From NCBI GenBank assembly GCA_003522145.1, contig DPGD01000024.1:14646-78645 (forward strand): 64,000 nucleotides of DNA, in the 5' to 3' direction. Position 1 is the first letter of the stretch. Each line of letters opens with the position of its first letter. The notes under the pieces were generated by a model, which made no database searches, was not told the DNA's origin, and saw only the letters and a program-made list of their open reading frames with translations. Source of the stretch: Clostridiales bacterium (GTDB taxonomy: Bacteria > Bacillota > Clostridia > Oscillospirales > CAG-272). Positions 1,543 to 18,129 of this stretch are shown here, piece after piece. The position numbers and the translations under genes were made by a program.

Positions 1543-1789
1543 AAGAAATGTTATAATCTTTCATGAAGTGATTGAGTCCTTTCTGTTGGATGGTTTGTGG
1601 TGATTCTATTTTAACAGAACTCAATCACTTTTTCTATACCTTTTTGCTTTTTTCTGTCTCACATCTATTGTAACACTACAAATTACAATTTTATTTTTAT
1701 ATAAGACTCTTGCTTTTTTTACGGTTATATGTTATGCTATATCTGAACAATCAATCAGTCAATTATAAGTGAGGAGTTTACACATATCT

Positions 1790-2448: not shown

Positions 2449-2745
2449 ATGACAACCAACAAACTTTTTGAAGGCGAACGGCTTACACTCACCCTGTCGG
2501 GAAGGCTCGACACCAATTCGTCCCCCGCACTGGAGGCGGAGCTGAAGCAATCCGTCGGTGGGGTGAAGGAGCTGATTTTTGATTTTTCCGGCGTAGAATA
2601 CATCTCCTCTGCGGGGCTTCGCATCCTGCTGGCGGCGCAGAAGGTGATGAACCGCCAGGGCAGCATGAAGCTGATCGGCGTAAACGACGACGTTATGGAA
2701 GTATTTGAAATCACCGGCTTTTCCGACATTTTGACCATCGAATAA
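2449..2745 (+). CDS. STAS-domain anti-sigma-factor antagonist (SpoIIAA/RsbV-like)
   Basis: 98 aa. It carries the conserved phospho-serine context DFSGVEYISSAGLRILL and the C-terminal VFEITGFSDIL motif. Confidence 0.9.
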   Translation: MTTNKLFEGERLTLTLSGRLDTNSSPALEAELKQSVGGVKELIFDFSGVEYISSAGLRILLAAQKVMNRQGSMKLIGVNDDVMEVFEITGFSDILTIE

Positions 2746-2755
2746 GCGAGGAATT

Positions 2756-5191: not shown

Positions 5192-5595
5192 AGGAATTGA
5201 CAATCCCCGCAACCGTTGAAAACATAGAAAAGGTAACCGAATTTGTAAACCGTCAGCTTCAGGAGATCCACTGCCCGAGCAAGGCGCAGATGCAGATTGA
5301 TATAGCGATTGACGAGCTTTTCGGCAACATCGCGCATTACGCATACAGGCCCGAAACAGGCCCCGCCACGGTGCGCGTGGAGGTAACGGAAGCGCCGATC
5401 TCCGTCATTGTCACCTTTATTGATCATGGGGTTCCCTACGATCCTCTGAAAAAGGACGATCCCGACATTACCCTGTCCGCAGACGAACGCGCCATTGGCG
5501 GGCTTGGCATTTTCATGGTCAAGAAAACCATGGACGAAATCACATACGAATATAAGGACGGTCAGAACATCCTTCGCATCCGAAAGGATCTTTGA
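5188..5595 (+). CDS. RsbW/SpoIIAB-like anti-sigma serine kinase (HATPase_c)
   Basis: 135 aa. The start overlaps the phosphatase stop (ATGA). N-box-like DELFGNIAHYAY, G-box-like GGLGIFMVKKTMDE. Confidence 0.85.
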   Translation: MKELTIPATVENIEKVTEFVNRQLQEIHCPSKAQMQIDIAIDELFGNIAHYAYRPETGPATVRVEVTEAPISVIVTFIDHGVPYDPLKKDDPDITLSADERAIGGLGIFMVKKTMDEITYEYKDGQNILRIRKDL

Positions 5596-5638
5596 AGCCG
5601 TTTGGAGCCGATTGAAATTTTATAAACGAGGTAAAGGT

Positions 5639-6115
5639 ATGAGCCAACCGATATTCCGCCAAAAAAGTATGGAAAAAATCTCTTCCCCGGAGCAGATGAA
5701 CGATTACATCCGCGTGTCAAACCCAAGTGTATGGATGATCCTTGCCGCCGTTATCGTACTGCTGGCAGGCGTATGCGTGTGGGGAATGTTCGGATGTCTT
5801 GACACCTCCTTTCAAACGGGCGGCGTCTGCCGGGACGGCTGTCTGACCGTTTATGTCAAGGAAGCCGACTTTGCCAAAATCAAAGGAAAAGCCATTCTTT
5901 CGGTTGACGGCTCGGAGCTTTCGCTGTCCGATCTGCCAGGCTCTCCCGTTCGGCTCGATGACAGTGCCGATCCGTATCTTCTTCATCTCATAGGCGCTTC
6001 GGCGGGCGATTGGGTATATGTTCTGACAGTCGATGCCAAAGACATGAAAAGCGGCACGTTCTCCGTTTCGGTCATTACCGAGCGCGTCAAGCCGCTCGAC
6101 TTTGTGCTGAACTGA
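5639..6115 (+). CDS. Short HlyD-like NHLM/NHLP-type bacteriocin secretion protein (158 aa)
   Basis: ATG at 5639 follows GAGGTAAAGGT. The N-terminal FRQKSMEKISSPEQMNDYIRVSNPSVWMIL + TM helix is the signature opening of HlyD-type adaptors of NHLM bacteriocin exporters (TIGR03794-like, from memory). The protein is far shorter than canonical adaptors. Confidence 0.6.
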   Translation: MSQPIFRQKSMEKISSPEQMNDYIRVSNPSVWMILAAVIVLLAGVCVWGMFGCLDTSFQTGGVCRDGCLTVYVKEADFAKIKGKAILSVDGSELSLSDLPGSPVRLDDSADPYLLHLIGASAGDWVYVLTVDAKDMKSGTFSVSVITERVKPLDFVLN

Positions 6116-6124
6116 GGTGCGGAC

Positions 6125-8305
6125 ATGAAGGCAACCAAAAAAATCAAAGCGCCCCTGACAAAGGGCGTGGCCAAAGTGCCCGTGATCATGCAGATGGAAG
6201 CGCTGGAATGCGGCGCCGCAAGCCTTGCCATGATCCTTGCCTATTATGAAAAATGGATCCCGCTGGAGCAGGTGCGTCTTGACTGCGGCGTTTCGCGCGA
6301 CGGCTCCAACGCAAGAAATCTTCTCCGGGCCGCCCGAAGCTACGGCCTTGCGGCCAAGGGCTATCGCTATGAACCCGAAACCCTGAAAAAAGAGGGGAAA
6401 TTCCCCTGCATTATCCATTGGAATTTCAATCATTTTGTGGTTCTTGACGGCTTCAAGGGCAACAAAGCGGTGTTAAACGATCCCGCAAAGGGCACCTATA
6501 CTGTCCCTATGAGCGTTTTTGACGACTCGTTTACAGGGGTATGCCTGTTTTTTGAGCCGGACGAAGGCTTTGTGCCGGAGGGCAAGCCGCAGTCCATGCT
6601 GAAATATGCGCAAAAACGGCTTGTCGGCGCAAGCACCGCCATTGTATTCGTCGTTCTGACCTCTATGATCACATCCCTGCTCGGCATGATCACGCCGGCG
6701 TTTTCGCGCATCTTTCTTGACCGACTGCTGACAAAAGAAAACCCGGAATGGCTCACGCCGTTTACGATTGCACTTGTGGGAATAAGCGTCATTCAGCTTA
6801 TCGTTGCATGGATCCAGGCCATCTATTCTCTCCGCATCAACGGAAAGCTCGCCATGGTGGGAAACACAACCTTTATGTGGAAAATCCTGCGCATGCCCAT
6901 GGAATTTTTTTCTCAGCGCATGGCAGGCGATCTTCAGGGCAGACAAGCGTCGAACGCCATGATAGCGGAGCGGCTGGTCAACATGTTTGCGCCGCTCGCG
7001 CTCAACGCCGCTATGATGGTGTTTTATCTCGTGGTCATGCTCCGATACAGCGTCGTACTGACGATGATAGGGCTTTTTTCGGTGATTGCCAACCTGGCCC
7101 TTTCGGGAATTATTTCAAGAAAGCGCATCAATATCACCCGCGTGCAAATGCGCGACGCCGGCAAGCTGGCGGGAACCACGGTCGCCGGCATAGAAATGAT
7201 TGAAACCATCAAGGCCAGCGGCGCCGAAAACGGCTTTTTTGAAAAATGGGCCGGCTATCAGGCAAGCGTCAATACAAATCAGGTTCGGTATCAGCGCACC
7301 AATCTGCTTCTTGAGCTACTGCCGGCTCTGATAAGCGCCCTTTGCGGAACGGCCGTGCTGATGACAGGCGTTTTCCTGGCGATGGAAGGTCTGTTTACCG
7401 TCGGTATGATCATGGCGTTTCAGGGCTTTCTTTCGTCGTTCGTTTCCCCCGCAATGTCGCTGATTTCCGCGGGGCAATCGCTCCAGGAAATGCGCACCGA
7501 TATGGAACGGATTGAGGATGTTATGAAATATCCCGCCGACGTGACCTTTGCCGAGCACGAGGAGGAGGCTGTCGAATACGACAAGCTGGCCGGAAACATC
7601 GAAATCAAAAATATAACCTTCGGGTATTCCCGCCTGGCGGAGCCTTTGATTCAGGATTTCAGCATGACCTTGACGCCGGGAAGCCGCATTGCTTTTGTCG
7701 GGCCGTCCGGGTGCGGAAAGTCCACCCTCTCAAAGCTCATATCCGGACTTTACAAGCCTTGGAGCGGCGAAATCCTGTTTGACGGCAAGCCTTTGTCGGA
7801 AATTGATCGCAGCGTGTTTACAGGCTCCCTTGCCGTGGTGGATCAGGATATTATCCTGTTTGAAGATACGATTGCCAACAACATTAAAATGTGGGATAAC
7901 TCCATTGAAGACTTTGAAATGATCATGGCGGCGCGCGACGCGCAGCTTCACGAGGATATTATGCAGCGCGAAGGCGGCTATCAGTACCGGCTGACCGAGG
8001 GCGGAAAGGATTTTTCCGGCGGGCAGAGACAGCGCATGGAGATTGCGCGCGTGCTCGCGCAGGATCCCACGATCATCCTTCTTGACGAGGCGACAAGTGC
8101 GCTGGACGCCAAAACCGAATACGACGTGGTGAAATCCATCAAAGACAGGGGCATCACCTGTATTGTGGTGGCGCACAGACTTTCCACCATACGCGATTGT
8201 GACGAGATTATTGTAATGGATCAGGGAAAAGTCATTGAGCGCGGAACACACGAGGAGCTGATGAAACAAGGCGGAGCTTATACTCAGCTCGTATCAAACG
8301 AGTAA
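6125..8305 (+). CDS. Bacteriocin ABC exporter with N-terminal C39 peptidase domain (NHLM ABC1-type)
   Basis: 726 aa. C39 motif QMEALECGAASLAMILAYY (catalytic Cys about aa 29) and HWNFNHFVVL; six-TM permease region; Walker A GPSGCGKST, signature FSGGQRQR, Walker B ILLDEATSALD. Confidence 0.92.
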   Translation: MKATKKIKAPLTKGVAKVPVIMQMEALECGAASLAMILAYYEKWIPLEQVRLDCGVSRDGSNARNLLRAARSYGLAAKGYRYEPETLKKEGKFPCIIHWNFNHFVVLDGFKGNKAVLNDPAKGTYTVPMSVFDDSFTGVCLFFEPDEGFVPEGKPQSMLKYAQKRLVGASTAIVFVVLTSMITSLLGMITPAFSRIFLDRLLTKENPEWLTPFTIALVGISVIQLIVAWIQAIYSLRINGKLAMVGNTTFMWKILRMPMEFFSQRMAGDLQGRQASNAMIAERLVNMFAPLALNAAMMVFYLVVMLRYSVVLTMIGLFSVIANLALSGIISRKRINITRVQMRDAGKLAGTTVAGIEMIETIKASGAENGFFEKWAGYQASVNTNQVRYQRTNLLLELLPALISALCGTAVLMTGVFLAMEGLFTVGMIMAFQGFLSSFVSPAMSLISAGQSLQEMRTDMERIEDVMKYPADVTFAEHEEEAVEYDKLAGNIEIKNITFGYSRLAEPLIQDFSMTLTPGSRIAFVGPSGCGKSTLSKLISGLYKPWSGEILFDGKPLSEIDRSVFTGSLAVVDQDIILFEDTIANNIKMWDNSIEDFEMIMAARDAQLHEDIMQREGGYQYRLTEGGKDFSGGQRQRMEIARVLAQDPTIILLDEATSALDAKTEYDVVKSIKDRGITCIVVAHRLSTIRDCDEIIVMDQGKVIERGTHEELMKQGGAYTQLVSNE

Positions 8306-8319
8306 GGGGGCGGATCGAT

Positions 8320-10521
8320 ATGGGTTGGTTTGACGAACAAATCAGAGATCGCAAGCATAACGACGACGAGGCTTTTGCCGAAGCCTTTGCCAATATGGCC
8401 TCTGCCATCACCGGCAAAAAAATCGAAGCCTCCTTAAACAACGACCGCGCTGTTACCAAAGACGCCATCGACGAAATTCTGAAATATTATCATGTAAAGA
8501 GCCGCGAGGTGCCGGACGAAATCGGCGACATAAACGAACAGCTTGAATATCTCATGCGCCCTTTCGGCATTATGCGACGCCCGATCCGGCTGGAGGACGG
8601 CTGGTATCGTGACGCAATCGGCGCCATGCTCGGCGTGCTGCGCGAAAGCGGAAGGGTGGTGGCGCTGATTCCCACAGGGCTTTCCGGGTACAGCTATTTT
8701 GATTACGAAGTCGGCAAACGAAGAAAAATCAATCGCAAAAATCAGCACCTGTTTGAAATGGAAGCCATTGCGTTTTACAAGCCCTTTCCGCTGAAAAAAA
8801 TCAGCCTGCCGTCGCTGGCCGCATATATCATGCGGACGCTTTCGGCCTCCGATTTTGTGATGATCGCCCTGGCCACGCTTGCTCTATCGCTGATCGGCAT
8901 GATTTCCCCGATGATCAGCAAGCTCCTGTTTGCTCGTGTGCTTCCGTCGGGAAGCATGCGCCTGCTTATCGCCATTACGGTCTTCTCCGTGTCCGTTTCG
9001 ATCAGCACGCTTCTCTTTTCCGCCGTGAAAAAGCTGATCATGGCCCGGATCGAAACCAAGCTGAACATATCGGTTGACGCAGCCGCCATGATGCGCGTCC
9101 TGTCGCTCCCGGCCGATTTCTTCAAGTCGTACAGCGCAGGCGAGCTTTCAAACCGTGTGTCTCAGGTCGGTGTGCTTTGCAAAATGCTGGCGTCCACCGT
9201 CCTGTCTACGGGACTGACTTCCCTTTTCTCGCTCCTATACCTATCGCAGATATTTGTCTACGCGCCGGCTCTTGTCGCTCCCGCGCTGATAATTATTCTT
9301 GTAACCGTTGTATTTTCCATCCTGTCGTCGCTCATTCAGATGAAAATAAGCATACGTCAGATGGAGCTTTCCGGCAAAGAAGACGGTATGACCTATGCTC
9401 TCATTTCGGGCATACAAAAGATTAAGCTGGCCGGCGCCGAAAAACGCGCCTTTGCAAGATGGGGCAATCTTTATGCCGAAAGCGCAAGGCTTACCTACAA
9501 TCCGCCGATGTTTATCAAGCTCAACACCGTCATCAGCCTTGCCATAAGCCTTGCGGGAACGATCATCATGTACGTCATGGCGGTAAAATCGGGCATTTCC
9601 GTGGCCGATTATTACGCCTTCGGCACGGCATACGGCATGGTGTCCGGCGCATTTACGGCGCTGGCCGGAATCGCGCTCACCGTGGCGCAGATAAAGCCCA
9701 TCCTCCATATGGTAAAACCGTTTTTTGATACCGCACCTGAAGTTTCAGACGGAAAACAGGTGATCACAAGGCTGTCCGGCGGAATTGAACTGAGCAATGT
9801 TTCGTTCCGATACAGCGAAAACATGCCCCTGGTGGTAGACGATATGTCGCTTAAAATACGTCCCGGACAATATGTTGCCATCGTCGGGAAAACGGGCTGC
9901 GGAAAGTCAACGCTTATGCGTCTGCTGCTCGGCTTTGAGCATCCGCAAAAAGGCGCCATCTATTATGACGGGAGAGATCTGGAACGAATTGACCTCCGCT
10001 CTCTGCGGCGTCGGATCGGTTCCGTTATGCAAAACGGGAAGCTGTTCCAGGGCGATATTTATTCCAATATCGTCATTTCCGCACCGTGGCTGTCCCCAAA
10101 CGAAGCATGGGAAGCGGCGGAGCTTGCGGGAATTGCCGAGGATATAAGAAAAATGCCCATGGGGATGAGCACGATCATCTCCGAAGGCTCGGGCGGCATC
10201 TCCGGCGGACAGCGCCAGCGGCTGATGATTGCTCGCGCCATCGCGCCAAAGCCCAGAATCCTTATGTTTGACGAGGCGACAAGCGCGCTGGACAATCTCA
10301 CGCAGAAAAAGATCTCCGAAGCGCTCGACTCATTGAAATGCACCAGAATCGTAATTGCGCACCGGCTTTCGACCATCAAGCAGTGCGACAGGATCCTCGT
10401 GCTGGATCACGGAAAGATCATCGAAGACGGCAAATATGACGAGCTGATTGCAAAGAACGGCTTCTTTGCGGAGCTTGTCGCTCGGCAGAGGCTTGACGGC
10501 GCTCCCAAAGCCGATTTCTAA
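8320..10521 (+). CDS. Second bacteriocin ABC exporter permease/ATPase without peptidase domain (NHLM ABC2-type)
   Basis: 733 aa. It has a non-peptidase N-terminal domain of about 150 aa, a TM region, Walker A GKTGCGKST, signature ISGGQRQR, and Walker B LMFDEATSALD. Confidence 0.9.
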   Translation: MGWFDEQIRDRKHNDDEAFAEAFANMASAITGKKIEASLNNDRAVTKDAIDEILKYYHVKSREVPDEIGDINEQLEYLMRPFGIMRRPIRLEDGWYRDAIGAMLGVLRESGRVVALIPTGLSGYSYFDYEVGKRRKINRKNQHLFEMEAIAFYKPFPLKKISLPSLAAYIMRTLSASDFVMIALATLALSLIGMISPMISKLLFARVLPSGSMRLLIAITVFSVSVSISTLLFSAVKKLIMARIETKLNISVDAAAMMRVLSLPADFFKSYSAGELSNRVSQVGVLCKMLASTVLSTGLTSLFSLLYLSQIFVYAPALVAPALIIILVTVVFSILSSLIQMKISIRQMELSGKEDGMTYALISGIQKIKLAGAEKRAFARWGNLYAESARLTYNPPMFIKLNTVISLAISLAGTIIMYVMAVKSGISVADYYAFGTAYGMVSGAFTALAGIALTVAQIKPILHMVKPFFDTAPEVSDGKQVITRLSGGIELSNVSFRYSENMPLVVDDMSLKIRPGQYVAIVGKTGCGKSTLMRLLLGFEHPQKGAIYYDGRDLERIDLRSLRRRIGSVMQNGKLFQGDIYSNIVISAPWLSPNEAWEAAELAGIAEDIRKMPMGMSTIISEGSGGISGGQRQRLMIARAIAPKPRILMFDEATSALDNLTQKKISEALDSLKCTRIVIAHRLSTIKQCDRILVLDHGKIIEDGKYDELIAKNGFFAELVARQRLDGAPKADF

Positions 10522-10606
10522 CGCAAAAAACTTCAAAAATTTTTTCAGATTTTTATTAGCCTTTTTTTCTTTTGGATCGTATAAATCAACAGAAGGAGGA
10601 AGTAAA

Positions 10607-10843
10607 GTGATAGGCATAAGAGCAGGGCAACAAGACAGATTGCCCGAAATCAGCGAAAAAACGCTTTCGGCGCTGTTTGATTATCAATTGTTTGAAAACG
10701 AGCCTTCGCTCCGAAAACTCATAGATGAAGTGGAAAACGAATACGGTGCCGAAATTTCAGAGGATGACCTCTCGCTTGTCAGTGCGGCGGGCGAAACGGA
10801 ATCTTCCGAAAAGCGCAAAGGCAAAATGGACGGTACTCTATGA
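10607..10843 (+). CDS. Small acidic protein of unknown function, translationally coupled to the sigma factor
   Basis: GTG at 10607 lies 7 nt after AGGAGGA (10594-10600). The 78-aa ORF's stop overlaps the sigma gene ATG (ATGA at 10840-10843). The segment YGAEISEDDLSLVSAAG resembles the Nif11/double-glycine leader end of the downstream precursors. Confidence 0.45.
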   Translation: MIGIRAGQQDRLPEISEKTLSALFDYQLFENEPSLRKLIDEVENEYGAEISEDDLSLVSAAGETESSEKRKGKMDGTL

Positions 10844-11325
10844 GCCTTGCAACGGAAAAGGAAGCGCTGTATACGGAATACCACGACAAGGTAAGCCATT
10901 ATGTTTTCTGCAGACTGCAAAACAAAAGCGACGCAGAAGACATTGTCAGCGAAATCTTCCTGAAAGTTTACGAACATTTCGATACATTTGACGCAAGTCT
11001 TGCTTCCGTTTCCACATGGATTTATACGATCACACGGAACACCGTAACGGATTATTTCAGGTCAAACCGCATCTATGCGGAATTGCCGGAGGAGTTATCG
11101 GACGGAGACGACATCGATTGCGTTGTTTTACAAAAAGAATCTCTTGCGGCGCTCGGAAAAGCGCTCGGCAAGCTTGACGAGCGCCGCTGCGCCCTTGTGA
11201 TTTTAAAGTATTACAAGAAAATGTCTCTGAAAGATATAGCGGCAAGAATGGGCATATCGTATGCCTATGTAAAAATTCTGCACAAAAGTGCGCTGAACAA
11301 ACTTAAAAATGATCTGAGCGGTTGA
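10840..11325 (+). CDS. Sigma-70 family (ECF-like, two-domain) RNA polymerase sigma factor
   Basis: 161 aa. Region 2: DAEDIVSEIFLKVYEHFDTFD...STWIYTITRNTVTDYFR. Region 4 HTH: MSLKDIAARMGISYAYVKILHKSALNKLK. Confidence 0.9.
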   Translation: MSLATEKEALYTEYHDKVSHYVFCRLQNKSDAEDIVSEIFLKVYEHFDTFDASLASVSTWIYTITRNTVTDYFRSNRIYAELPEELSDGDDIDCVVLQKESLAALGKALGKLDERRCALVILKYYKKMSLKDIAARMGISYAYVKILHKSALNKLKNDLSG

Positions 11326-11358
11326 GTTCAAGCATAATTATACAGGAGGACAAACAAC

Positions 11359-11544
11359 ATGAAAGAACAGAAGGAAAAAATCAAAACCGACAAAGCGGAG
11401 CTGAATGAAAACGAGCTTGAAAAAGTAGACGGCGGCATGAAAGTAATAATCATCGGCGACGGAAAGATGGGGATGTGCGAAAGATGCGGCATATATGCCT
11501 ATATCGTTGACGGGCTTTGCGAAAAATGCAGAAAAAATAAGTGA
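11359..11544 (+). CDS. Precursor peptide P1: short double-glycine leader + 35-aa core with CxxCG-x9-CxxC
   Basis: AGGAGG RBS. Leader MKEQKEKIKTDKAELNENELEKVDGG, core MKVIIIGDGKMGMCERCGIYAYIVDGLCEKCRKNK (4 Cys). Confidence 0.75.
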   Translation: MKEQKEKIKTDKAELNENELEKVDGGMKVIIIGDGKMGMCERCGIYAYIVDGLCEKCRKNK

Positions 11545-11568
11545 CCGAGAAGAATAAAATACACGGCT

Positions 11569-11841
11569 ATGGAAAAAAACAAAAAGCTTACAAAAGCAAA
11601 TGCGGACGAATTATCCGATAAAAAACTTGAAAATGTTTCGGGCGGCACCGAAATCACGGACAATGAGAGCATTAAGATAAACAACAATAATTTTGACACA
11701 AGTATAAATTTCAATAATTTTGACACGAGCATCAAAATAAACAACAATAATGTTGATATGAGCATAAAGCATAGCAACGATATGAATAAAAACATTCTGC
11801 TAAACAACGATTCAGATATGAAAATACTGAAAAACAACTGA
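11569..11841 (+). CDS. Precursor peptide P2: short double-glycine leader + 64-aa Asn-rich, Cys-free repeat core
   Basis: Leader MEKNKKLTKANADELSDKKLENVSGG. The core contains IKINNNNFDTSINFNNFDTSIKINNNNVDMSIKH and has AT-rich coding DNA. Confidence 0.6.
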   Translation: MEKNKKLTKANADELSDKKLENVSGGTEITDNESIKINNNNFDTSINFNNFDTSIKINNNNVDMSIKHSNDMNKNILLNNDSDMKILKNN

Positions 11842-11894
11842 AAAGCGCTGTTATCCCGCCCAAAAACTTTTATGAATAAGGAGACGACAAGAAA

Positions 11895-12311
11895 ATGAAC
11901 ACCGAACTTATCGCCAAGGCAAAGGAAGCGAAATCCCCCGAAGAACTGATGGCTCTTGCAAAAGAAAACGGCATGGAACTGACCGAAGAAGCAGCAAGTA
12001 CATATTTTAATCAGCTCAACCCAAAAATGGGCGAGCTTGCAGATGACGAGCTTGACAATGTTGCCGGCGGCGGCTGCTACTCAAGCGGCGGACGTCTAAA
12101 AACTACCTGCGGATATAAATGCAAGCATTATCAAGACGGGCCTTCAACTTATGGTGTAAAAGGCACCTGCTGCAGATGCAGATACTGGGGCGTCGATCCT
12201 AACGCTATAAGCGCTTCTCTTTGGACAACGGTTTTAGAGTTGATCGTAAAAGCGGCTGAGGCGGCTGAACCTCGTGAGTGCTACCATCCCGCCAACAGTA
12301 AAAAGGGCTGA
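11895..12311 (+). CDS. Precursor peptide P3: Nif11-type leader + ~78-aa core (7 Cys)
   Basis: Leader MNTELIAKAKEAKSPEELMALAKENGMELTEEAASTYFNQLNPKMGELADDELDNVAGGG, followed by CYSSGGRLKTTCGYKCKHYQDGPSTYGVKGTCCRCRYWG... Confidence 0.85.
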   Translation: MNTELIAKAKEAKSPEELMALAKENGMELTEEAASTYFNQLNPKMGELADDELDNVAGGGCYSSGGRLKTTCGYKCKHYQDGPSTYGVKGTCCRCRYWGVDPNAISASLWTTVLELIVKAAEAAEPRECYHPANSKKG

Positions 12312-12370
12312 TTGGTACAAAAATTTGCACATTTAATTAAACAAATAAAAAACATCAAAGGAGCATCGCA

Positions 12371-12610
12371 ATGAAAATGAACAATGAACTTATCGCAAAA
12401 GCAAAACAGGCAAAAAACCCCGAAGAGCTTCTGGCTCTTGCAAAAGAAAACGGCGTTGAACTGACGGAAGAAAGCGCAAAGGCGTATTTCAATCAGCTCA
12501 ATCCCAAAACAGGCGAGCTTGCCGACGACGAGCTTGACAATGTCGCCGGCGGCGGCTGCCAGCAGAACAACGGTCATCTTGATAAATACAAGGATTTCAA
12601 CAACATTTGA
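12371..12610 (+). CDS. Precursor peptide P4: Nif11-type leader + very short core (1 Cys)
   Basis: The leader is near-identical to P3/P5. The core after GG(G) is only CQQNNGHLDKYKDFNNI. Confidence 0.7.
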   Translation: MKMNNELIAKAKQAKNPEELLALAKENGVELTEESAKAYFNQLNPKTGELADDELDNVAGGGCQQNNGHLDKYKDFNNI

Positions 12611-12661
12611 TTTTTTCCCGCACAACAAACATCTGAAAAATTTATTATGATAGGAGTTTTT

Positions 12662-13045
12662 ATGAAAAAGGATCTTTTAGTGAAAGCAAAACAAGCAAAA
12701 ACCCCTGAAGAATTGATGTCCTTCGCAAAGGAAAACAACATTGAACTGACCGAAGAGAGCGCAAAGGCGTACTTTGAACAGCTCAACCCCAAAACGGGCG
12801 AGCTTGCAGATGACGAGCTTGACAATGTTGCCGGCGGCGGATGCCATAACGGCGGCAGGCTTGTCGTTTCCGTAATGCATTACTGCGATGAATGGCGTTG
12901 CAAGGATGACGGCTCCCAATGCGATATAGACGGCGTACTGGTAAACTGCAACACCTGCAAGGTCGCCGCATACTGCTTTTCGTGCAAGTACTGTACCTAC
13001 GAAAAAGGGCTCTGGCTCTGCAATAACCCCGTTAACATGAAATAA
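12662..13045 (+). CDS. Precursor peptide P5: Nif11-type leader + ~68-aa core (10 Cys), paralogue of P8
   Basis: ATG 12662 after TAGGAG. Core GCHNGGRLVVSVMHYCDEWRCKDDGSQCDIDGVLVNCNTCKVAAYCFSCKYCTYEKGLWLCNNPVNMK. Confidence 0.85.
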   Translation: MKKDLLVKAKQAKTPEELMSFAKENNIELTEESAKAYFEQLNPKTGELADDELDNVAGGGCHNGGRLVVSVMHYCDEWRCKDDGSQCDIDGVLVNCNTCKVAAYCFSCKYCTYEKGLWLCNNPVNMK

Positions 13046-13071
13046 ACCTACTCAAACAAGGAGATTTTACC

Positions 13072-13485
13072 ATGGACAATAAATTTACACCCGAACTTAT
13101 TGAAAAAGCCAAAGAAGCGAAAACCCCCGAAGAATTGTTCGCTCTTGCAAAAGAAAACGGCGTTGAACTGACCGAAGAGAGCGCAGCGTCGTATTTTGAC
13201 CGGCTGAACCCCAAAACAGGTGAGCTTTCCGACAGTGAGCTTGATAATGTATCCGGCGGCGGTTGCCTCAGTGATGACCCCTACGATACTTGTATGGCGG
13301 ACGGCTACTGTTTGTCCGACTATGTATGCAGCCGTTGCGGCACAAGGGGTATTGACCATAGCACCGGCGTGTTGCGTTGTTCCGGATGTTTTGCAAGCGA
13401 CCCCCGCTGTCGGAACTGTAGGAACAGTATTGGGGATAAGAGCGATTCGGTATTAAAATGCAAGGTTCATCCGAGACCCTGCTAA
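13072..13485 (+). CDS. Precursor peptide P6: Nif11-type leader + ~75-aa core (11 Cys)
   Basis: The core GCLSDDPYDTCMADGYCLSDYVCSRCGTRGIDHSTGVLRCSGCFASDPRCRNCRNSIGDKSDSVLKCKVHPRPC contains CxxCG-x12-CxxC. Confidence 0.85.
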   Translation: MDNKFTPELIEKAKEAKTPEELFALAKENGVELTEESAASYFDRLNPKTGELSDSELDNVSGGGCLSDDPYDTCMADGYCLSDYVCSRCGTRGIDHSTGVLRCSGCFASDPRCRNCRNSIGDKSDSVLKCKVHPRPC

Positions 13486-13519
13486 AGAATATTTTAAATT
13501 GTACAGAGAGGATTCAAAG

Positions 13520-13915
13520 ATGGAAATGAACAAAGAATTGCTTGCAAAAGCAAAAGAAATGAAAACTCCCGAAGAACTCATGGCTCTCGCAAAAGAAAGC
13601 GGCATTGAAATGACAAAAGAAAAAGCGGATGAGTATTTTAAGCAGCTTAGCACAAGCTCCGGCGAGATATCCGATGAGGAACTCGATAATGTTTCCGGCG
13701 GCTGTGGCGGCGGATATGTTGCCGGCAGACCCCATCCTCAATTCGGCGTTGGTGAATCCGTTCTTTATATTTGCGGCTGGTTGGGAGGAGACAGGATAAC
13801 CGCGTCCGCCAAGGTCGTGAAGAGAAGCTATGAAAACGACGCATGGTATTATACCCTGAAAATACATGACGGAAGTGAAATAACGCTAAGCGAGTCGTAT
13901 GTAATAAAGAGCTGA
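13520..13915 (+). CDS. Precursor peptide P7: Nif11-type leader + ~70-aa Cys-poor, beta-rich core (2 Cys)
   Basis: ATG 13520 was chosen by alignment with P4 (MEMNKELLAKAK vs MKMNNELIAKAK). Core CGGGYVAGRPHPQFGVGESVLYICGWLGGDRITASAKVVKRSYENDAWYYTLKIHDGSEITLSESYVIKS. Confidence 0.75.
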   Translation: MEMNKELLAKAKEMKTPEELMALAKESGIEMTKEKADEYFKQLSTSSGEISDEELDNVSGGCGGGYVAGRPHPQFGVGESVLYICGWLGGDRITASAKVVKRSYENDAWYYTLKIHDGSEITLSESYVIKS

Positions 13916-13961
13916 GAACAAGACAGCTTTTACAAAATAAATTTGAGGCAAGGAGATTTTT

Positions 13962-14351
13962 ATGCAAAACAATCAAGAGCTTTTCGCAAAAGCAAAGGAA
14001 GCAAAAACCCCCGAGGAGCTGTTGTCTCTCGCGAAAGAAAACGGCATTGAAATGACCGATGAGAGCGCAAACGCATATTTTGAAATCATACATCCGAAAG
14101 CCGGCGAGCTTGCAGACGACGAGCTTGACAATGTATCCGGCGGCGGATGTCGCAAGAGTGACGGAAGACTTGTAGTTTCCGCCGGCTATTCATGCGGATA
14201 TTGGGAATGCAACAAATGCGGAGTGAAATGGAAAAATGCCGGTTACGGTACTTTTAAGTGCAGTAGGTGCGGAAAATCATCACATTGCAATAACTGCTAC
14301 TGGTGCTCATATGAAAAAGGGCTTTGGCTTTGCAATAACAAGGACAAATGA
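13962..14351 (+). CDS. Precursor peptide P8: Nif11-type leader + ~67-aa core (10 Cys), paralogue of P5
   Basis: Core GCRKSDGRLVVSAGYSCGYWECNKCGVKWKNAGYGTFKCSRCGKSSHCNNCYWCSYEKGLWLCNNKDK. It shares GRLVVS and C-x2-C-x5-C-x2-C-x2-C-x9-C / YEKGLWLCNN with P5. Confidence 0.85.
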   Translation: MQNNQELFAKAKEAKTPEELLSLAKENGIEMTDESANAYFEIIHPKAGELADDELDNVSGGGCRKSDGRLVVSAGYSCGYWECNKCGVKWKNAGYGTFKCSRCGKSSHCNNCYWCSYEKGLWLCNNKDK

Positions 14352-14365
14352 ACTGATTCGGGTAT

Positions 14366-15751
14366 ATGCGTTATATTTTGAACCCCAATGTCGCCCTGCG
14401 TTCATGGCAGCTCGTCCCCTACGCCTATTACATAAAGGGTGAACGCAATGCGGCAGGACTGAAAAAAGAAGAATTTGAATTTCTGTCGGCGTGTGACGGA
14501 AAAACCGACCTGCCGACAGAAAACGAAAGCACTCTCGCACACGAACTCATTGAAAAAGGCTTTATCCATAAAGCGGCGAGCGGAGAAAACCTCTCCGATT
14601 GGAGCAAACCCCGCATTTTTGAAAACCGTTATTTTCCCGCCATGAATCTGATGATAACGGGCAAATGCAATTATAATTGTATTCATTGCTTCAATGCCGC
14701 GGACAATGCCCCGCTGATGAGCGAATGGACTATGGATGAAATGAATACGCTTCTCGATCAGGCGCGCGATTGCGGAATCAATGCGTTCACAATCACCGGC
14801 GGCGAGCCTATGCTGCACAAAAATTTCTTTGAAATTATTGAAGGCATCTATTCGCGCGGAATGTTCGTCGAAGAACTGAACACCAACGGCCATTTCATAA
14901 ACAAGCAAGCGCTTGCGTGCCTGAAAAGCATCGGCTGCGTCCCGCTCGTGAAAATATCCTTTGACGGCATCGGTTATCACGATTGGATGCGGAATCATAA
15001 GGGTGCCGAGCAAATTGCGCTGGATGCGATTTCTCACTGTATTGAAAACGGGTTTCCCGTCAAAGTGCAGACCAACATGAACCGCCAAAACTGCGACATA
15101 ATGCTGGAAACGGCCAAAAAGCTGGACGCGATGGGCGTAAGCGAAACGCGGATGATCCGCACGACCGAAGCTCCGCGTTGGGTACAGAATGCCGGCGACG
15201 CCTGCCTTACGTTTGAAGAATATTTTGATAAAGCGATCTGCCTCTGGCAGAAATACGCGGCGGAAGCTCATGATATGAATCTGACCGTATGGCAAGTGGG
15301 AACGCTTTATCCAAAATCAAAATTTTATACCCTTGCCGCCGTCAATTCCTGCACAGGCCAATATCGCCCAAGCGCCCCCGTGTGCAAAGGCAACCGCGGC
15401 ATGGTTGCGGTGGCGGCCAACGGAAATCTTTACCCCTGCCATCAAATGTCCGGCTATTACGAGCAGCACGGATATTTTCTCGGCAACATCAAACAAACTC
15501 CGCTGAAAGAGTTACTTTCGGGCGGAAAATACCTTGACGAAGTCTGCACCACGCTCGGAACACTGAAAGAAAGCAACCGCAAGTGCGGCAATTGTTCCTA
15601 TTTTGAACGCTGTAACGGCGGTTGTCGCGCTATAGCGTTGGCACTTACAGGCGACAGGCTCGGAATCGATCCCTCCAAGTGCCTTTTCTGGGAAAACGGC
15701 TACGCCGAAAAAATTGCGGCGGCTCTGCCGGATTACGAAACAAATATTTAA
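14366..15751 (+). CDS. Radical SAM/SPASM-domain peptide maturase
   Basis: 461 aa. CX3CX2C = CNYNCIHC (aa 101-108). SPASM-type auxiliary cluster motifs: CKGNRGMVAVAANGNLYPC (C-x12-G-x4-C) and CGNCSYFERCNGGC (CX2CX5CX3C). The ~95-aa N-terminal extension before the SAM cluster could be a leader-recognition (RRE/PqqD-like) domain. Confidence 0.92.
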   Translation: MRYILNPNVALRSWQLVPYAYYIKGERNAAGLKKEEFEFLSACDGKTDLPTENESTLAHELIEKGFIHKAASGENLSDWSKPRIFENRYFPAMNLMITGKCNYNCIHCFNAADNAPLMSEWTMDEMNTLLDQARDCGINAFTITGGEPMLHKNFFEIIEGIYSRGMFVEELNTNGHFINKQALACLKSIGCVPLVKISFDGIGYHDWMRNHKGAEQIALDAISHCIENGFPVKVQTNMNRQNCDIMLETAKKLDAMGVSETRMIRTTEAPRWVQNAGDACLTFEEYFDKAICLWQKYAAEAHDMNLTVWQVGTLYPKSKFYTLAAVNSCTGQYRPSAPVCKGNRGMVAVAANGNLYPCHQMSGYYEQHGYFLGNIKQTPLKELLSGGKYLDEVCTTLGTLKESNRKCGNCSYFERCNGGCRAIALALTGDRLGIDPSKCLFWENGYAEKIAAALPDYETNI

Positions 15752-15773
15752 TATAAAGAAAGGACTCACGAAC

Positions 15774-15980
15774 ATGGATAACAAAAACAACGAAACAAAG
15801 GAATACATCCTCACGGAAGAAGAACTGAAAGCCGTTTCCGGCGGCAAATCGTCACAAGTCCCCGGTATTAACTGTCCGCGTTGCGGCAAATTTATTCCGA
15901 CAACCATTACGGATTTACTGGTCCAACCTCGTATCAGATGCCCGTACTGTTTGTTGATACTGAATATCAATCAGAAATAA
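15774..15980 (+). CDS. Precursor peptide P9: short double-glycine leader + 44-aa core with CxxCG-x17-CxxC
   Basis: ATG 15774 (the track ORF opens earlier, at 15714, overlapping the rSAM gene). Leader MDNKNNETKEYILTEEELKAVSGG, core KSSQVPGINCPRCGKFIPTTITDLLVQPRIRCPYCLLILNINQK. Confidence 0.7.
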   Translation: MDNKNNETKEYILTEEELKAVSGGKSSQVPGINCPRCGKFIPTTITDLLVQPRIRCPYCLLILNINQK

Positions 15981-16054
15981 TCTCATATCGGAGCAGCGTC
16001 AACCGACGCGCGGCATAAACCGGAAAAATTCCGGTGCCGTCATAAAACGCAAAA

Positions 16055-16106
16055 CAAGCGATATCTGTCTATCTGAAAGGATAAACTGATATCGCTTGCT
16101 TTTTTA
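16055..16106 (+). terminator. Rho-independent-type terminator closing the RiPP operon
   Basis: 11-bp stem CAAGCGATATC / GATATCGCTTG (22-nt loop) followed by CTTTTTT. Confidence 0.55.
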
Positions 16107-16654: not shown

Positions 16655-17050
16655 TTAGATGCAGTGCGAAGAAACACTTCTCTCTTGGTGAAACAAGGGC
16701 TTGCAAGTGACCGCTATCTTCCGGGCTTGCAGAGCCATGCTTGTAAACGAGCTTATGTATGCCGTTTCGGTTTCAAAACCGATGTATTGTCTGCCGGTGA
16801 TGGTGAAATCCGCACCGAGCAGACTGCGGATGATTCTGTTCTTGTCACGCAGATAGTTACCTTTGCTGTAAAGAGACACACGTGCCTCCTGCACATCATA
16901 GGAAAGAGCATCGTCTGCATTGAGGGCAAAGCGGTCGGACATAGGCACCGCCACGATATAGGTATCCGGGGCGGTGTCGGTAAACACACCCGTTTCAAGC
17001 GGAATGCCGAGGGGTGTGAGAGTTTGTTTGATGTCTGCAAGGATATTCAT
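16655..17050 (-). CDS. Phage head-tail joining/tail-completion-like protein (family uncertain)
   Basis: 131 aa, 4-nt overlap with the upstream phage gene. Its position after the gp10-like gene is typical of HK97/SPP1-like head-tail modules. The C-terminal ~30 aa look atypical, so it may be junction-derived. Confidence 0.45.
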   Translation of the reverse strand: MNILADIKQTLTPLGIPLETGVFTDTAPDTYIVAVPMSDRFALNADDALSYDVQEARVSLYSKGNYLRDKNRIIRSLLGADFTITGRQYIGFETETAYISSFTSMALQARKIAVTCKPLFHQERSVSSHCI

Positions 17051-18120: not shown

Positions 18121-18129
18121 CTCCCGTCA

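What the first reader, a model, noticed from the sequence alone, without database searches (positions are those of the whole stretch)
5639..15980. Nine-precursor radical-SAM/SPASM RiPP locus with Nif11-type and short double-glycine leaders and an NHLM-type exporter
**Gene block.** One same-strand block with no visible internal terminator contains:
- a short HlyD-like secretion protein
- a C39-peptidase ABC exporter
- a second ABC permease/ATPase
- a small ORF plus an ECF-like sigma factor
- eight tandem small ORFs
- a single radical SAM/SPASM enzyme (CNYNCIHC; C-x12-G-x4-C; CX2CX5CX3C)
- a ninth small ORF, followed by a terminator at 16055-16106

**Precursor signature.** All nine small ORFs end their N-terminal part in EL-x3-(E)L-x2-V-[ADS]-GG. 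That is the cleavage signature expected for the C39 exporter encoded five genes upstream.

**Relation to known systems.** Exporter plus leader matches the Nif11/NHLP-leader plus NHLM-exporter paradigm described by Haft and co-workers. Pairing with a SPASM enzyme recalls the TIGRFAM-level 'nif11-like peptide radical SAM maturase' concept (TIGR03798, TIGR03794/6/7, TIGR04064, all from memory).

**What looks unusual.**
- The cores are large (35-79 aa).
- Cys content ranges from 0 to 11.
- Two unrelated leader architectures occur in one operon.
- There is a single tailoring enzyme.
- No recognisable immunity gene is present.

I know of no characterised product with such cores, but I cannot confirm novelty without a search.
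Basis: partly seen in the sequence, partly recalled or inferred. Interest (0 to 1): 0.92.

Follow-up and report, generated by a model that had tools for sequence, protein, structure and literature searches.

The report
Gut-clostridial radical-SAM peptide export locus
This is a real, intact gene cluster, common in gut Clostridia but with no characterised member found, that makes leader-tagged small proteins, most likely modifies them at one fixed cysteine with a radical-SAM enzyme, and exports them through a leader-cleaving ABC pump, apparently under its own sigma factor.

Summary

**What the tools confirm**
- A true NHLM exporter pair (TIGR03796 and TIGR03797, both above cutoff).
- Six Nif11-leader precursors and three short double-glycine peptides.
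- One RRE–radical-SAM–SPASM enzyme that reaches no curated family cutoff. Its nearest solved relative is the sactisynthase SkfB.

**What I add**
1. The cluster is a widespread, unnamed family: 47 species-level genomes of gut Oscillospirales, Lachnospiraceae and one Bacilli, and more than 1,500 enzyme homologues.
2. In 128 of 133 distinct Nif11-type cores the only constant feature is a Cys at core position 1 or 2 after the GG site. It is the sole Cys in 15 of them. This is the probable enzyme target.
3. The rest of each core looks like a small folded domain or a short 15–25-residue peptide.
4. The system also includes an ECF-like sigma factor, a conserved small protein that mimics the leader's cleavage motif with AAG in place of GG, a conserved promoter-like element (TTAGCC-N16-CGTATAAA), and often a STAS/PP2C/RsbW module.

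The chemistry is inferred, not shown. I rate it a new variant of a known kind, of moderate to high interest.

The parts
2449..2745 (+). STAS-domain anti-sigma-antagonist-like protein (partner-switching module)
   Evidence: Pfam STAS scores 59 bits against a cutoff of 22.6. It is syntenic with the locus in several related genomes.
2756..5191 (+). Membrane PP2C phosphatase with a 5TMR-LYT sensor domain and a SpoIIE domain
   Evidence: Pfam 5TM-5TMR_LYT 105.6 bits and SpoIIE 173 bits. It lies upstream of the exporter in about 15 Oscillospirales-type loci and elsewhere in the locus in L024 and L027.
5188..5595 (+). RsbW-like serine kinase / anti-sigma (HATPase_c_2)
   Evidence: Pfam HATPase_c_2 79 bits. 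It is 83-93% identical in the closer related loci and sits immediately before the HlyD-like gene.
5639..6115 (+). Short HlyD-like membrane protein (158 aa: N-terminal TM segment plus a small domain)
   Evidence: TIGR03794 matches only residues 13-63 (35 bits, below the cutoff of 156). It always precedes ABC1 in related loci.
6125..8305 (+). NHLM ABC exporter subunit 1 with an N-terminal C39 leader peptidase
   Evidence: TIGR03796 939.7 bits (cutoff 853.3). Peptidase_C39 118.5 bits. The ECG Cys and the NHFVVL His are visible in the translation.
8320..10521 (+). NHLM ABC exporter subunit 2 (permease/ATPase, no peptidase domain)
   Evidence: TIGR03797 736.7 bits (cutoff 709.4). Its N-terminal 175 aa show no similarity to the C39 domain (hhalign P 0.12).
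10556..10585 (+). Conserved promoter-like element TTAGCC-N16-CGTATAAA
   Evidence: This is the only copy in the window. It is conserved upstream of smallX in related loci (the strict pattern hits 11 of them). It lies directly upstream of precursor genes in L024 and L025, and occurs as TTGGCT/TTAGCC-N16-TCGTATAAA upstream of the precursor in 10 Lachnospiraceae loci.
10607..10843 (+). smallX: conserved 78-aa protein carrying a leader-like motif with AAG in place of GG. It is a candidate sigma regulator or pseudo-leader.
   Evidence: GTG start behind a GGAGG site, and a 4-nt overlap with the sigma gene. It has no Pfam or NCBIfam hit. It is conserved next to the sigma gene in about 32 loci. It has 263 relatives among the 50%-identity cluster representatives, and 112 of 146 short members keep ...DL..V.AAG. 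Only the 16-aa motif aligns to the Nif11 leaders (hhalign P 2.5e-5).
10840..11325 (+). ECF-like sigma-70 family sigma factor (regions 2 and 4 only)
   Evidence: TIGR02937 95.9 bits (cutoff 42.9). Sigma70_r2 and Sigma70_r4 both hit.
11359..11544 (+). Short double-glycine-leader peptide p1, with a 35-aa CxxC...CxxC core
   Evidence: Leader ...ELNENELEKVDGG. It is conserved in 9 related loci at 54-75% identity, with a weaker 39% match in a tenth. It has no Nif11 leader and no N-terminal Cys.
11569..11841 (+). Short double-glycine-leader peptide p2, with a 64-aa Asn-rich repeat core and no Cys
   Evidence: Described. Internal 27-33-nt repeats. Conserved in 8 related loci.
11895..12311 (+). Nif11-leader precursor 1: core GC..., 79 aa, 7 Cys
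   Evidence: TIGR03798 29.3 bits, just under the cutoff of 32.3. The family recurs in many loci.
12371..12610 (+). Nif11-leader precursor 2: 18-aa core GCQQNNGHLDKYKDFNNI, single Cys
   Evidence: Pfam Nif11 25.6 bits (cutoff 23.8). A short-core family GCxxxxGxL[DN]... is present about once per locus in about ten related loci and is abundant in metagenomes.
12662..13045 (+). Nif11-leader precursor 3: core GCHNGGRLVV...EKGLWLCN, 10 Cys (an alternative start lies at 12647)
13072..13485 (+). Nif11-leader precursor 4: core GCLSDDPYD...KCKVHPRPC, 11 Cys
13520..13915 (+). Nif11-leader precursor 5: core CGGGY...; SH3-like appearance by eye, not tested; 2 Cys
   Evidence: Described. It belongs to a 10-member core family found in 9 loci.
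13962..14351 (+). Nif11-leader precursor 6: core GCRKSDGRLVV...EKGLWLCN, 10 Cys
   Evidence: TIGR03798 33.8 bits (cutoff 32.3). It has 560 homologues. The AF2 model shows a helical leader, a disordered linker and a compact beta-rich core with pLDDT 76-93.
14366..15751 (+). Radical SAM/SPASM peptide maturase with an N-terminal RRE-like domain
   Evidence: Pfam Radical_SAM 57.3 bits and SPASM 30.8 bits. AF2 pLDDT 89.6. Foldseek best hits are SkfB, SuiB, CteB and anSME. No NCBIfam equivalog cutoff is reached.
15774..15980 (+). Short double-glycine-leader peptide p9, with a 44-aa CPxCG...CPYC zinc-ribbon-like core
   Evidence: Described. It is conserved downstream of the enzyme in 13 related loci at 49-96% identity.
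16057..16106 (+). Intrinsic-terminator-like hairpin plus T-run that closes the operon
   Evidence: Read directly from the sequence. The consensus scan did not find it because the loop is long.

Best explanation
This is a self-contained system for making and exporting leader-tagged peptides.

**Modification (inferred).** Six paralogous precursors carry a three-helix Nif11-type leader. This leader most likely docks on the N-terminal RRE-like domain of the single radical SAM/SPASM enzyme. The enzyme then acts at a fixed distance from the leader, on the invariant Cys at core position 1 or 2. The most probable reaction is a thioether (sactionine- or ranthionine-type) link to a nearby residue, frequently the Asp at Cys+4, giving a small N-terminal ring.

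**Export.** The heteromeric NHLM ABC exporter cuts after the Gly-Gly with its C39 domain and secretes the products. It is assisted by the short HlyD-like protein. The exporter assignment is shown by family membership; cleavage and secretion are inferred.

**Cargo (inferred).** The hypervariable remainder of each core is not the enzyme's substrate. It is a Cys-rich zinc-ribbon-like domain, an SH3-like domain or a short tail. The three peptides with short double-glycine leaders use only the exporter.

**Regulation.** Expression of the precursor/enzyme operon (10556-16106) is driven by the locus's ECF-like sigma factor from a conserved TTAGCC-N16-CGTATAAA promoter. Conservation of the promoter is shown; its assignment to this sigma factor is inferred. 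The translationally coupled small protein smallX copies the leader's cleavage motif with AAG instead of GG. It and the upstream STAS/PP2C/RsbW module probably gate the sigma factor. This could link transcription to exporter activity or to an external signal (speculative).
For: **Components**
- Exporter subunits score above the curated cutoffs, and the C39 domain is present.
- The leaders are Nif11-type.
- The enzyme has the CX3CX2C cluster and eight further invariant Cys in its C-terminal SPASM region, including the seven-Cys SPASM motif. Its model shows RRE-like, radical-SAM and SPASM domains at pLDDT 89.6.
- Its best structural and sequence relatives are RiPP maturases. The sactisynthase SkfB comes first: Foldseek 1e-16 and profile 1.1e-15.

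**The fixed Cys**
- Cys sits at core position 1 or 2 in 128 of 133 distinct cores from 47 loci, and is the only Cys in 15 of them.
- Two metagenome-wide samples agree: 118 of 119 cores and 53 of 61 distinct cores.
- Cys+4 is Asp in 69 of 128 cores.

**Cargo-like cores**
- The modelled core folds confidently, separated from the leader by a disordered linker that contains the GG site.

**Conservation and regulation**
- Synteny of exporter, smallX, sigma factor, precursors and enzyme holds across Oscillospirales and Lachnospiraceae.
- The promoter motif lies upstream of smallX or directly upstream of precursor genes in distant loci.
- smallX shares only the 16-residue cleavage motif with the leaders. 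It has 263 relatives among the 50%-identity cluster representatives, with conserved heads and variable tails.
Against: - No chemistry has been observed. The enzyme reaches no curated family cutoff: the best peptide-maturase models score only 70-92 bits against cutoffs of 340-725.
- No acceptor residue is universal. Asp/Asn/Glu at Cys+3 to Cys+5 occurs in 101 of 128 cores. Several families have only Gly/Ser-rich linkers after the Cys.
- The -10 part of the promoter motif (TATAAA) would also fit a housekeeping sigma factor, so the sigma assignment rests on co-location only.
- The partner-switching module was not found within 10 kb in the Lachnospiraceae loci.
- No expression data were available.
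- The zinc-ribbon reading of the cores rests on CPxCG-type patterns and on non-significant fold matches.
Confidence: 0.6

Rival explanations
1. Classical multi-bridge sactipeptide or ranthipeptide reading. The enzyme installs several thioether bridges throughout the Cys-rich cores. The N-terminal Cys is just the first of many donors.
For: - Cores carry up to 11-12 Cys.
- The nearest solved relative, SkfB, and the fold hit CteB form thioethers.
- StsB and PapB are among the NCBIfam hits.
Against: - 15 cores have a single Cys, and whole families have only 1-2 Cys.
- The extra Cys fall in CPxCG / CxxC...CxxC zinc-knuckle-like pairs.
- The modelled core folds confidently without cross-links.
- Only the position of the first Cys is conserved across unrelated core families.
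Confidence: 0.17
2. Single-residue chemistry on the fixed Cys without a ring. Examples are anSME-like oxidation to formylglycine, conversion to another reactive group, or attachment of a non-peptide group. This would give the secreted domains a reactive or anchoring N-terminus.
For: - Only the Cys is invariant, and several families have just Gly/Ser linkers after it.
- anSME gives the lowest rmsd (4.7-5.1 A in most entries) and the highest target-normalised TM-score (0.70-0.73) among the fold hits.
Against: - anSME lacks the RRE-like domain and acts on a defined sulfatase motif that is absent here.
- The anSME family scores only 63 bits against a cutoff of 349.
- A C-x3-D-G-x-L module is conserved in most cores, which suggests a second partner residue.
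Confidence: 0.15
3. Different radical-SAM chemistry that does not involve the Cys, such as epimerisation or C-C/C-O cross-linking. In this reading the Cys is conserved for another reason, for example processing, metal binding or product activity.
For: - SuiB (Lys-Trp cross-linking), TigE, PqqE and the epimerase EpeE are also fold neighbours.
- The WgkB and DynA models score as well as the thioether enzymes.
Against: No other residue or aromatic pair is conserved across the core families. A fixed-position Cys next to the leader is the simplest substrate signature.
Confidence: 0.06
4. The small ORFs or the whole cluster are non-functional: decaying paralogues beside a prophage remnant.
For: - A degraded prophage lies immediately downstream.
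- No expression data were available.
Against: - All ORFs are intact, and ribosome-binding sites are visible upstream of most of them.
- Order, leader and promoter are conserved across 47 species-level genomes.
- The pattern of conserved leaders with diversifying cores is typical of precursor families under selection.
Confidence: 0.02

Closest known systems
NHLP/Nif11-leader RiPP systems with the NHLM three-gene exporter, including those whose only maturase is a radical SAM enzyme (Haft, Basu & Mitchell 2010, PMC2887384; Haft 2011, PMC3023750; family TIGR04064)
   Same: - Nif11-type leader ending in V-x-G-G.
- Paralogous precursors with hypervariable cores.
- TIGR03796/TIGR03797 exporter pair.
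- A single SPASM radical SAM enzyme with the C-x2-C-x5-C-x3-C motif.
   Different: - The enzyme belongs to neither TIGR04064 nor TIGR04103.
- The HlyD component is truncated.
- The cores carry a fixed N-terminal Cys and are protein-like.
- A dedicated sigma factor with a leader-mimic protein is part of the cassette.
- The hosts are gut Clostridia.
Sactipeptide maturases: SkfB (sporulation killing factor) and the type-2 sactisynthases GggB/QmpB, which make small 4-residue sactionine rings (PMC9389541)
   Same: - SkfB is the best sequence and fold match.
- One enzyme, leader-dependent, with Cys as donor.
- Small rings close to the donor Cys are an established outcome.
   Different: - Identity is only 12-19%.
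- The StsB model scores 88 bits against a cutoff of 625.
- SkfB has a twitch domain rather than a full SPASM domain (my own knowledge, not tested here).
- Substrates of the known enzymes are short peptides, not 70-80-aa domains.
- The thioether here is unproven.
Ranthipeptide maturase PapB (freyrasin), which links Cys to Asp in C-x3-D motifs (PMC9413430, PMC10739248)
   Same: C-x3-D spacing occurs at the fixed Cys in 54% of cores. Both are SPASM enzymes.
   Different: - The PapB family model scores 72 bits against a cutoff of 340.
- There is a single motif per core, at a fixed position, rather than six repeats.
- Asp is not universal.
Prochlorosin-type Nif11 systems (ProcM) and other cases of one promiscuous enzyme serving many hypervariable cores
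   Same: Many paralogous Nif11 precursors are served by one tailoring enzyme and a C39 exporter. Leader-coding repeats are conserved while cores diversify.
   Different: - The enzyme class differs (radical SAM here, LanM there).
- Modification here seems confined to one fixed site rather than spread through the core.
ECF sigma/anti-sigma feed-forward control of RiPP clusters (microbisporicin MibX/MibW; from my own knowledge) and export-coupled anti-sigma control (FlgM/sigma-28; from my own knowledge)
   Same: A cluster-encoded ECF-type sigma factor is paired with a small translationally coupled partner and a cluster-specific promoter.
   Different: - smallX is soluble and unrelated to known anti-sigma families (no Pfam or NCBIfam hit).
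- It carries a pseudo double-glycine leader motif.
- Its role is untested.

Membership tests
NHLM bacteriocin exporter (TIGR03796 / TIGR03797 / TIGR03794) | The peptidase-containing ABC subunit scores above the TIGR03796 equivalog cutoff | tested here: met
   939.7 bits against a cutoff of 853.3. Peptidase_C39 118.5 bits.
NHLM bacteriocin exporter (TIGR03796 / TIGR03797 / TIGR03794) | The second ABC subunit, without a peptidase domain, scores above the TIGR03797 cutoff | tested here: met
   736.7 bits against a cutoff of 709.4.
NHLM bacteriocin exporter (TIGR03796 / TIGR03797 / TIGR03794) | Full-length HlyD-like membrane-fusion subunit (TIGR03794, 421 positions) | tested here: not met
   The protein is 158 aa. 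Only profile positions 1-51 match, at 35.4 bits against a cutoff of 156.2. It is a truncated form, conserved in all related loci.
Nif11-like leader RiPP precursors (TIGR03798 / PF07862) | The leader scores at or above the curated cutoff and ends in a Gly-Gly cleavage motif | tested here: met
   The 13962 ORF scores 33.8 against 32.3. The 12371 ORF scores 25.6 against 23.8 on Pfam Nif11. The other four fall just below cutoff (17.6-29.3 bits), but they form one 219-nt repeat family with these two. All end in V-[AS]-G-G.
Radical SAM / SPASM peptide maturases | CX3CX2C cluster, SPASM domain with the seven-Cys motif, and an N-terminal peptide-recognition (RRE-like) domain | tested here: met
   PF04055 57.3 bits and PF13186 30.8 bits. 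The Cys are invariant. The model has a winged-helix-like N-terminal domain and matches SkfB, SuiB and CteB. Leader binding itself was not tested.
nif11-class peptide radical SAM maturases (TIGR04064, TIGR04103) | Score above the equivalog cutoff | tested here: not met
   TIGR04103 scores 70 bits against a cutoff of 725. TIGR04064 is absent from the 25 best of 74 families, all of which score at least 56 bits.
Sactipeptides | Cys-S to acceptor C-alpha thioether installed by the radical SAM enzyme | not testable with these tools
   Only similarity could be measured: SkfB 1e-16, and the StsB model at 88 bits against a cutoff of 625. MS/NMR of the modified peptide is needed.
Ranthipeptides (PapB type) | PapB-family enzyme and C-x3-D/E motifs that become Cys-to-C-beta/gamma thioethers | tested here: inconclusive
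   The enzyme model scores 71.8 bits against a cutoff of 340, so that part is not met. The C-x3-[DNE] motif is present at the fixed Cys in 77 of 128 cores. The chemistry is untested.
ECF-type sigma-70 factors | Regions 2 and 4 only, with a score above the TIGR02937 cutoff | tested here: met
   95.9 bits against a cutoff of 42.9. Sigma70_r2 and Sigma70_r4 both hit. The protein is 161 aa.
Partner-switching module (RsbV/RsbW/PP2C type) | Adjacent STAS protein, HATPase_c_2 kinase and SpoIIE/PP2C phosphatase | tested here: met
   All three Pfam domains score above cutoff. Whether the module controls the locus's sigma factor was not tested.

The most novel reading that the evidence does not exclude
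The cluster is not a conventional antibiotic-peptide pathway. It is a general route for secreting small folded domains (zinc-ribbon-like or SH3-like) and short signal-like peptides. Each receives one radical-SAM-made modification at a fixed N-terminal Cys. The pathway is governed by a previously undescribed circuit. In that circuit a leader-mimic protein (smallX, with AAG in place of GG) ties the activity of a dedicated sigma factor to the C39 exporter. This would resemble FlgM export control, but through a bacteriocin-type ABC pump.
Probability: 0.2. Interest if true: 0.85.

Novelty: new variant of a known kind. Interest (0 to 1): 0.62.

Why it matters
**Possible new enzyme specificity.** The enzyme family has more than 1,500 homologues in gut metagenomes. 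It has no curated name, no solved close relative and no paper that I could find. Finding its reaction would add a RiPP maturase whose specificity seems set by position, the first or second residue after the leader, rather than by core sequence. That kind of specificity is attractive for tagging arbitrary peptides or mini-proteins.

**Relevance to gut ecology.** The products are numerous, fast-diversifying secreted molecules from abundant but poorly cultured human-gut Clostridia. They are candidates for interbacterial antagonism or signalling.

**Testable regulation.** The conserved sigma factor, leader-mimic protein and promoter form a compact regulatory hypothesis. Cultured mouse-gut isolates (Sporofaciens musculi, Petralouisia muris, Eubacterium sp. 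14-2) carry a minimal one-precursor version, which makes experiments feasible.

Tried and rejected
- **ABC2 as a degenerate C39-like domain for smallX.** hhalign of family alignments of the ABC2 N-terminal 175 aa against the ABC1 C39 domain gave P 0.12. This gives no support.
- **smallX as a diverged Nif11 leader.** Only a 16-residue C-terminal motif aligns. It is a mimic of the cleavage motif, not a homologue of the leader domain.
- **Fold search of the precursor model against the PDB.** Nothing was significant; the best E-value was 1.9. The weak hits are zinc-ribbon ribosomal proteins, TFS4 and C1 domains. The zinc-ribbon reading therefore stays a sequence-pattern inference.
- **Automatic terminator and promoter scan.** It missed both the real terminator hairpin and the conserved promoter element. 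Both were found by reading and comparing sequences.
- **Eight of the nine full-text literature searches.** Seven combined Nif11, radical SAM, SPASM, thioether, gut taxa, sigma factor and TIGR accessions; one looked up ChlB. None returned a description of this family. The library holds open-access papers only, so a subscription-journal report cannot be excluded.
- **NCBIfam and Pfam scans of the cores, p1, p2, p9 and smallX.** No family reached its curated cutoff, and smallX and p2 had no hits at all; the only core-region hits were weak.
- **Taxonomy look-up of the closest named genome.** It failed on name syntax. The organism is known only as a relative of Eubacterium sp. CAG:841, whose enzyme is 92% identical.

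Full report
**1. What is in the sequence.**

The + strand carries an uninterrupted block of genes from 2449 to 15980. In order they are:
- a STAS protein (2449-2745)
- a membrane 5TMR-LYT/SpoIIE PP2C phosphatase (2756-5191)
- an RsbW-like HATPase_c_2 kinase (5188-5595)
- a 158-aa HlyD-like protein (5639-6115)
- a C39-peptidase ABC exporter (6125-8305)
- a second ABC permease/ATPase (8320-10521)
- a 78-aa ORF, here called smallX (10607-10843), overlapping by 4 nt an ECF-like sigma factor (10840-11325)
- eight small ORFs (11359-14351)
- a radical SAM/SPASM enzyme (14366-15751)
- a ninth small ORF (15774-15980)

A hairpin followed by a T-run lies at 16057-16106. Gaps between genes are -4 to 88 nt, and ribosome-binding sites are visible upstream of most of the precursor ORFs. 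All nine small ORFs carry a double-glycine leader motif. A six-frame scan of the 64-kb window recovers eight of them plus smallX, all between 10.4 and 14.4 kb. The ninth (IL in place of EL) escaped that stricter pattern. Only five other matches appear, in four unrelated ORFs. The six long leaders form a six-copy 219-nt direct repeat. One correction is needed: core lengths are 18-79 aa, not 35-79.

**2. Family assignments.**

- *Exporter.* Both subunits are true members of the NHLM exporter families: TIGR03796 at 940 bits against a cutoff of 853, and TIGR03797 at 737 against 709. The first has a complete C39 domain.
- *HlyD-like protein.* It matches TIGR03794 only over its first 50 residues. 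It is a truncated form.
- *Leaders.* Two of the six long leaders reach the curated Nif11-leader cutoffs, and the others fall just below.
- *Enzyme.* It has the Radical_SAM and SPASM domains. It reaches no NCBIfam equivalog cutoff. The best models are haem-pathway NirJ/AhbD-type enzymes (97-107 bits against cutoffs of 500-650). A spread of peptide maturases follows: ScmE 92, WgkB 88, StsB 88, DynA 79, PapB 72, nif11-maturase-3 70, MftC 70 and PqqE 68 bits, all far below cutoff.
- *Enzyme model.* The AF2 model (pLDDT 89.6) shows an N-terminal winged-helix-like domain, the radical-SAM barrel and a SPASM domain. Foldseek places it with SkfB, SuiB, CteB, anSME, TigE, PqqE and ChlB at 12-19% identity. 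A family profile also ranks SkfB first, at 1.1e-15.
- *Upstream genes.* The three genes at 2449-5595 are a textbook partner-switching set by Pfam.

**3. It is a conserved family, not a one-off.**

- The enzyme has 1,553 database homologues at E ≤ 1e-10. The 120 listed all carry no source-given name.
- Relatives occur in 47 species-representative genomes. The closest is Eubacterium sp. CAG:841 (92%). Others are many human-gut Oscillospirales MAGs, mouse-gut Lachnospiraceae including cultured Sporofaciens musculi, Petralouisia muris and Eubacterium sp. 14-2 (about 60%), and a Bacilli MAG (46%).
- Gene order is conserved: HlyD-short, ABC1, ABC2, smallX, sigma, precursors, enzyme. In Lachnospiraceae the smallX-sigma pair sits just after the enzyme and there is a single precursor.
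- The STAS/PP2C/RsbW genes accompany the locus in most Oscillospirales-type loci. They lie elsewhere in the locus in L024 and L027, and were not seen within 10 kb in Lachnospiraceae.
- The precursor family has 560 homologues, unnamed or 'hypothetical'.

**4. The key regularity: one fixed cysteine.**

I collected 133 distinct Nif11-type cores from the window and the 47 loci.
- 128 have a Cys at core position 1 or 2 after the Gly-Gly: GG|xC (x = G in about 100, otherwise A, S, H or D) in 114, and GG|C in 14.
- In 15 cores it is the only Cys.
- Two independent metagenome-wide samples agree: 118 of 119 cores and 53 of 61 distinct cores. In the second sample, several of the exceptions are very short or look like frame-shifted fragments, and three are a Cys-poor 9-aa core type (VLLRPKIKL and variants).

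Everything after the Cys varies:
- several Cys-rich families ending in EKGLWLCN, CYHPANSKK or KCKVHPRPC
- an SH3-like family (CGGGY..GRP..F.VGE.V)
- other small-domain families
- a recurrent short family of 15-25 aa (GCxxxxGxL[DN]...), found about once per locus in about ten of the related loci

A C-x3-D-G-x-L module follows the Cys in the largest group. Asp sits at Cys+4 in 69 of 128 cores, and Asp/Asn/Glu sits at Cys+3 to +5 in 101 of 128. No acceptor is universal.

The model of the 13962 precursor shows a helical leader and a disordered linker containing the cleavage site. The core is a compact beta-rich fold at pLDDT 76-93. It has no significant PDB neighbour. The weak matches are zinc-ribbon proteins.

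*Inference.* The enzyme, docked on the leader, acts at a fixed distance on this Cys. The rest of the core is cargo.

The three short-leader peptides p1, p2 and p9 have neither the Nif11 leader nor the N-terminal Cys. They are conserved in related loci. They most likely share only the exporter.

**5. Regulation.**

*smallX.*
- It is conserved beside the sigma gene in about 32 loci.
- It has no Pfam or NCBIfam match.
- It has 263 relatives among the 50%-identity cluster representatives.
- Members share the head LFD[YF]Q.FE...ELSDDDL..V[SN]AAG[ED], followed by a hypervariable 10-77-aa tail.
- Profile comparison with the Nif11 leaders aligns only the last 16 residues: GAEISEDDLSLVSAAG against tGELsDdELdNVaGGg, P 2.5e-5. 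It therefore copies the C39 recognition motif but replaces GG with AA.

*Promoter-like element.*
- TTAGCC-N16-CGTATAAA lies 22 nt upstream of the smallX start codon. It occurs once in the window.
- The same element precedes smallX in related loci (the strict pattern hits 11 of them).
- It precedes individual precursor genes in L024 (three copies) and L025 (at least four copies).
- It precedes the single precursor in 10 Lachnospiraceae loci, as TTGGCT or TTAGCC-N16-TCGTATAAA.

*Inference.* The locus's sigma factor drives an operon running from 10556 to the terminator at 16106. The link of smallX and of the partner-switching module to that sigma factor is a hypothesis. The -10 part of the element would also suit a housekeeping sigma factor.

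**6. Most likely mechanism and rivals.**

*Best explanation (0.6 for the overall scheme; roughly 0.4-0.5 for the thioether itself).*
- Leader-guided, position-specific radical-SAM modification of the fixed Cys.
- The reaction is probably a thioether to a nearby residue, often the Asp at Cys+4.
- C39 cleavage after GG and ABC export follow.
- Transcription comes from a dedicated sigma-dependent promoter.

*Rivals.*
- Many thioether bridges through the Cys-rich cores (0.17). This is disfavoured by the single-Cys cores and by the zinc-knuckle-like Cys spacing.
- Ring-less chemistry on the Cys, such as anSME-like formylglycine (0.15). The lack of a universal acceptor and the good anSME superposition favour it. 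The conserved C-x3-D-G-x-L module and the RRE architecture count against it.
- Chemistry not involving the Cys (0.06).
- A non-functional cluster (0.02).

**7. Comparison with known systems.**

The cluster works like the NHLP/Nif11 'one leader family, interchangeable maturase, NHLM exporter' systems defined by Haft and colleagues. Those include cases whose only maturase is a SPASM radical SAM enzyme (PMC2887384, PMC3023750). Its exporter and leaders are members of those families. Its enzyme is not a member of any curated maturase family.

It resembles sactipeptide and ranthipeptide pathways in enzyme architecture and in the Cys signature. Small rings next to the donor Cys are known from type-2 sactipeptides (PMC9389541), and C-x3-D rings from PapB (PMC9413430). 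Membership of either class cannot be decided without chemistry.

The features I did not find described are:
- the fixed-position Cys
- the protein-like cargo
- the sigma / leader-mimic / promoter cassette

Eight literature searches gave no report of this family. The library covers open-access papers only.

**8. Verdict.**

- It is a new variant of a known kind rather than categorically new.
- It is less exceptional than first scored, because it is a common gut-clostridial cassette.
- It remains uncharacterised as far as my searches show, and it offers a sharply testable substrate rule and regulatory hypothesis.
- Interest: 0.62.

Noticed in passing
window 16655-18720 (- strand): A degraded prophage fragment lies directly after the locus terminator. 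By PHROGs it contains a tail terminator, a neck/tail-completion protein, head closure, a head-tail adaptor, and only the C-terminal 196 aa of a major head protein. No packaging or tail genes follow; the ORFs beyond about 19.9 kb were not annotated here.
   Followed up: partly
window 1-2000: A low-GC stretch (38% against about 50% elsewhere). It carries a phage-family ORF of unknown function (18-416, phrog_24764) and a primase-like gene (715-1542, - strand; DNAG_N / phrog_6444). It may be the edge of another mobile element just upstream of the TetR gene at 1769-2383.
   Followed up: partly
window 10607-10843 and proteins P0241-P0390: smallX belongs to a sizeable unannotated family of small proteins: 263 relatives among the 50%-identity cluster representatives. 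Members have a conserved head ending in ...DL..V.AAG and a hypervariable tail of 10-77 aa, which is itself a leader/core-like layout. One member, P0269, reads as sigma-factor region 2 fused to smallX. It may be a chimera.
   Followed up: partly
L015:9151-9357; proteins such as P0489: The same Nif11 leader is occasionally followed by a 9-residue cationic core, usually without any Cys (GG|VALRLKKLF, GG|VLLRPKIKL). This is an exception to the Cys rule. It may be an unmodified signal or decoy peptide.
   Followed up: no
window 11667-11768 (inside the 11569-11841 ORF): The Cys-free, Asn-rich peptide p2 is built from imperfect 27-33-nt tandem repeats encoding NNFDTSI(K/N)-like units. The peptide type is conserved in 8 related loci, and its function is unknown.
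   Followed up: no
L024:11407-12923 and L025:5140-10767: In these divergent Oscillospiraceae loci most precursor genes lie downstream of the enzyme. Several of them, about half, have their own copy of the TAGCC-N16-GCGTATAAA element. This suggests modular precursor cassettes that carry their own promoter.
   Followed up: partly
L001:8287-8715: The closest public genome (Eubacterium sp. CAG:841) has a run of ambiguous bases inside one precursor gene, translated as XXXXX and flanked by a duplicated CHNGG. This is probably an assembly problem caused by the repeated leader/core sequences.
   Followed up: no
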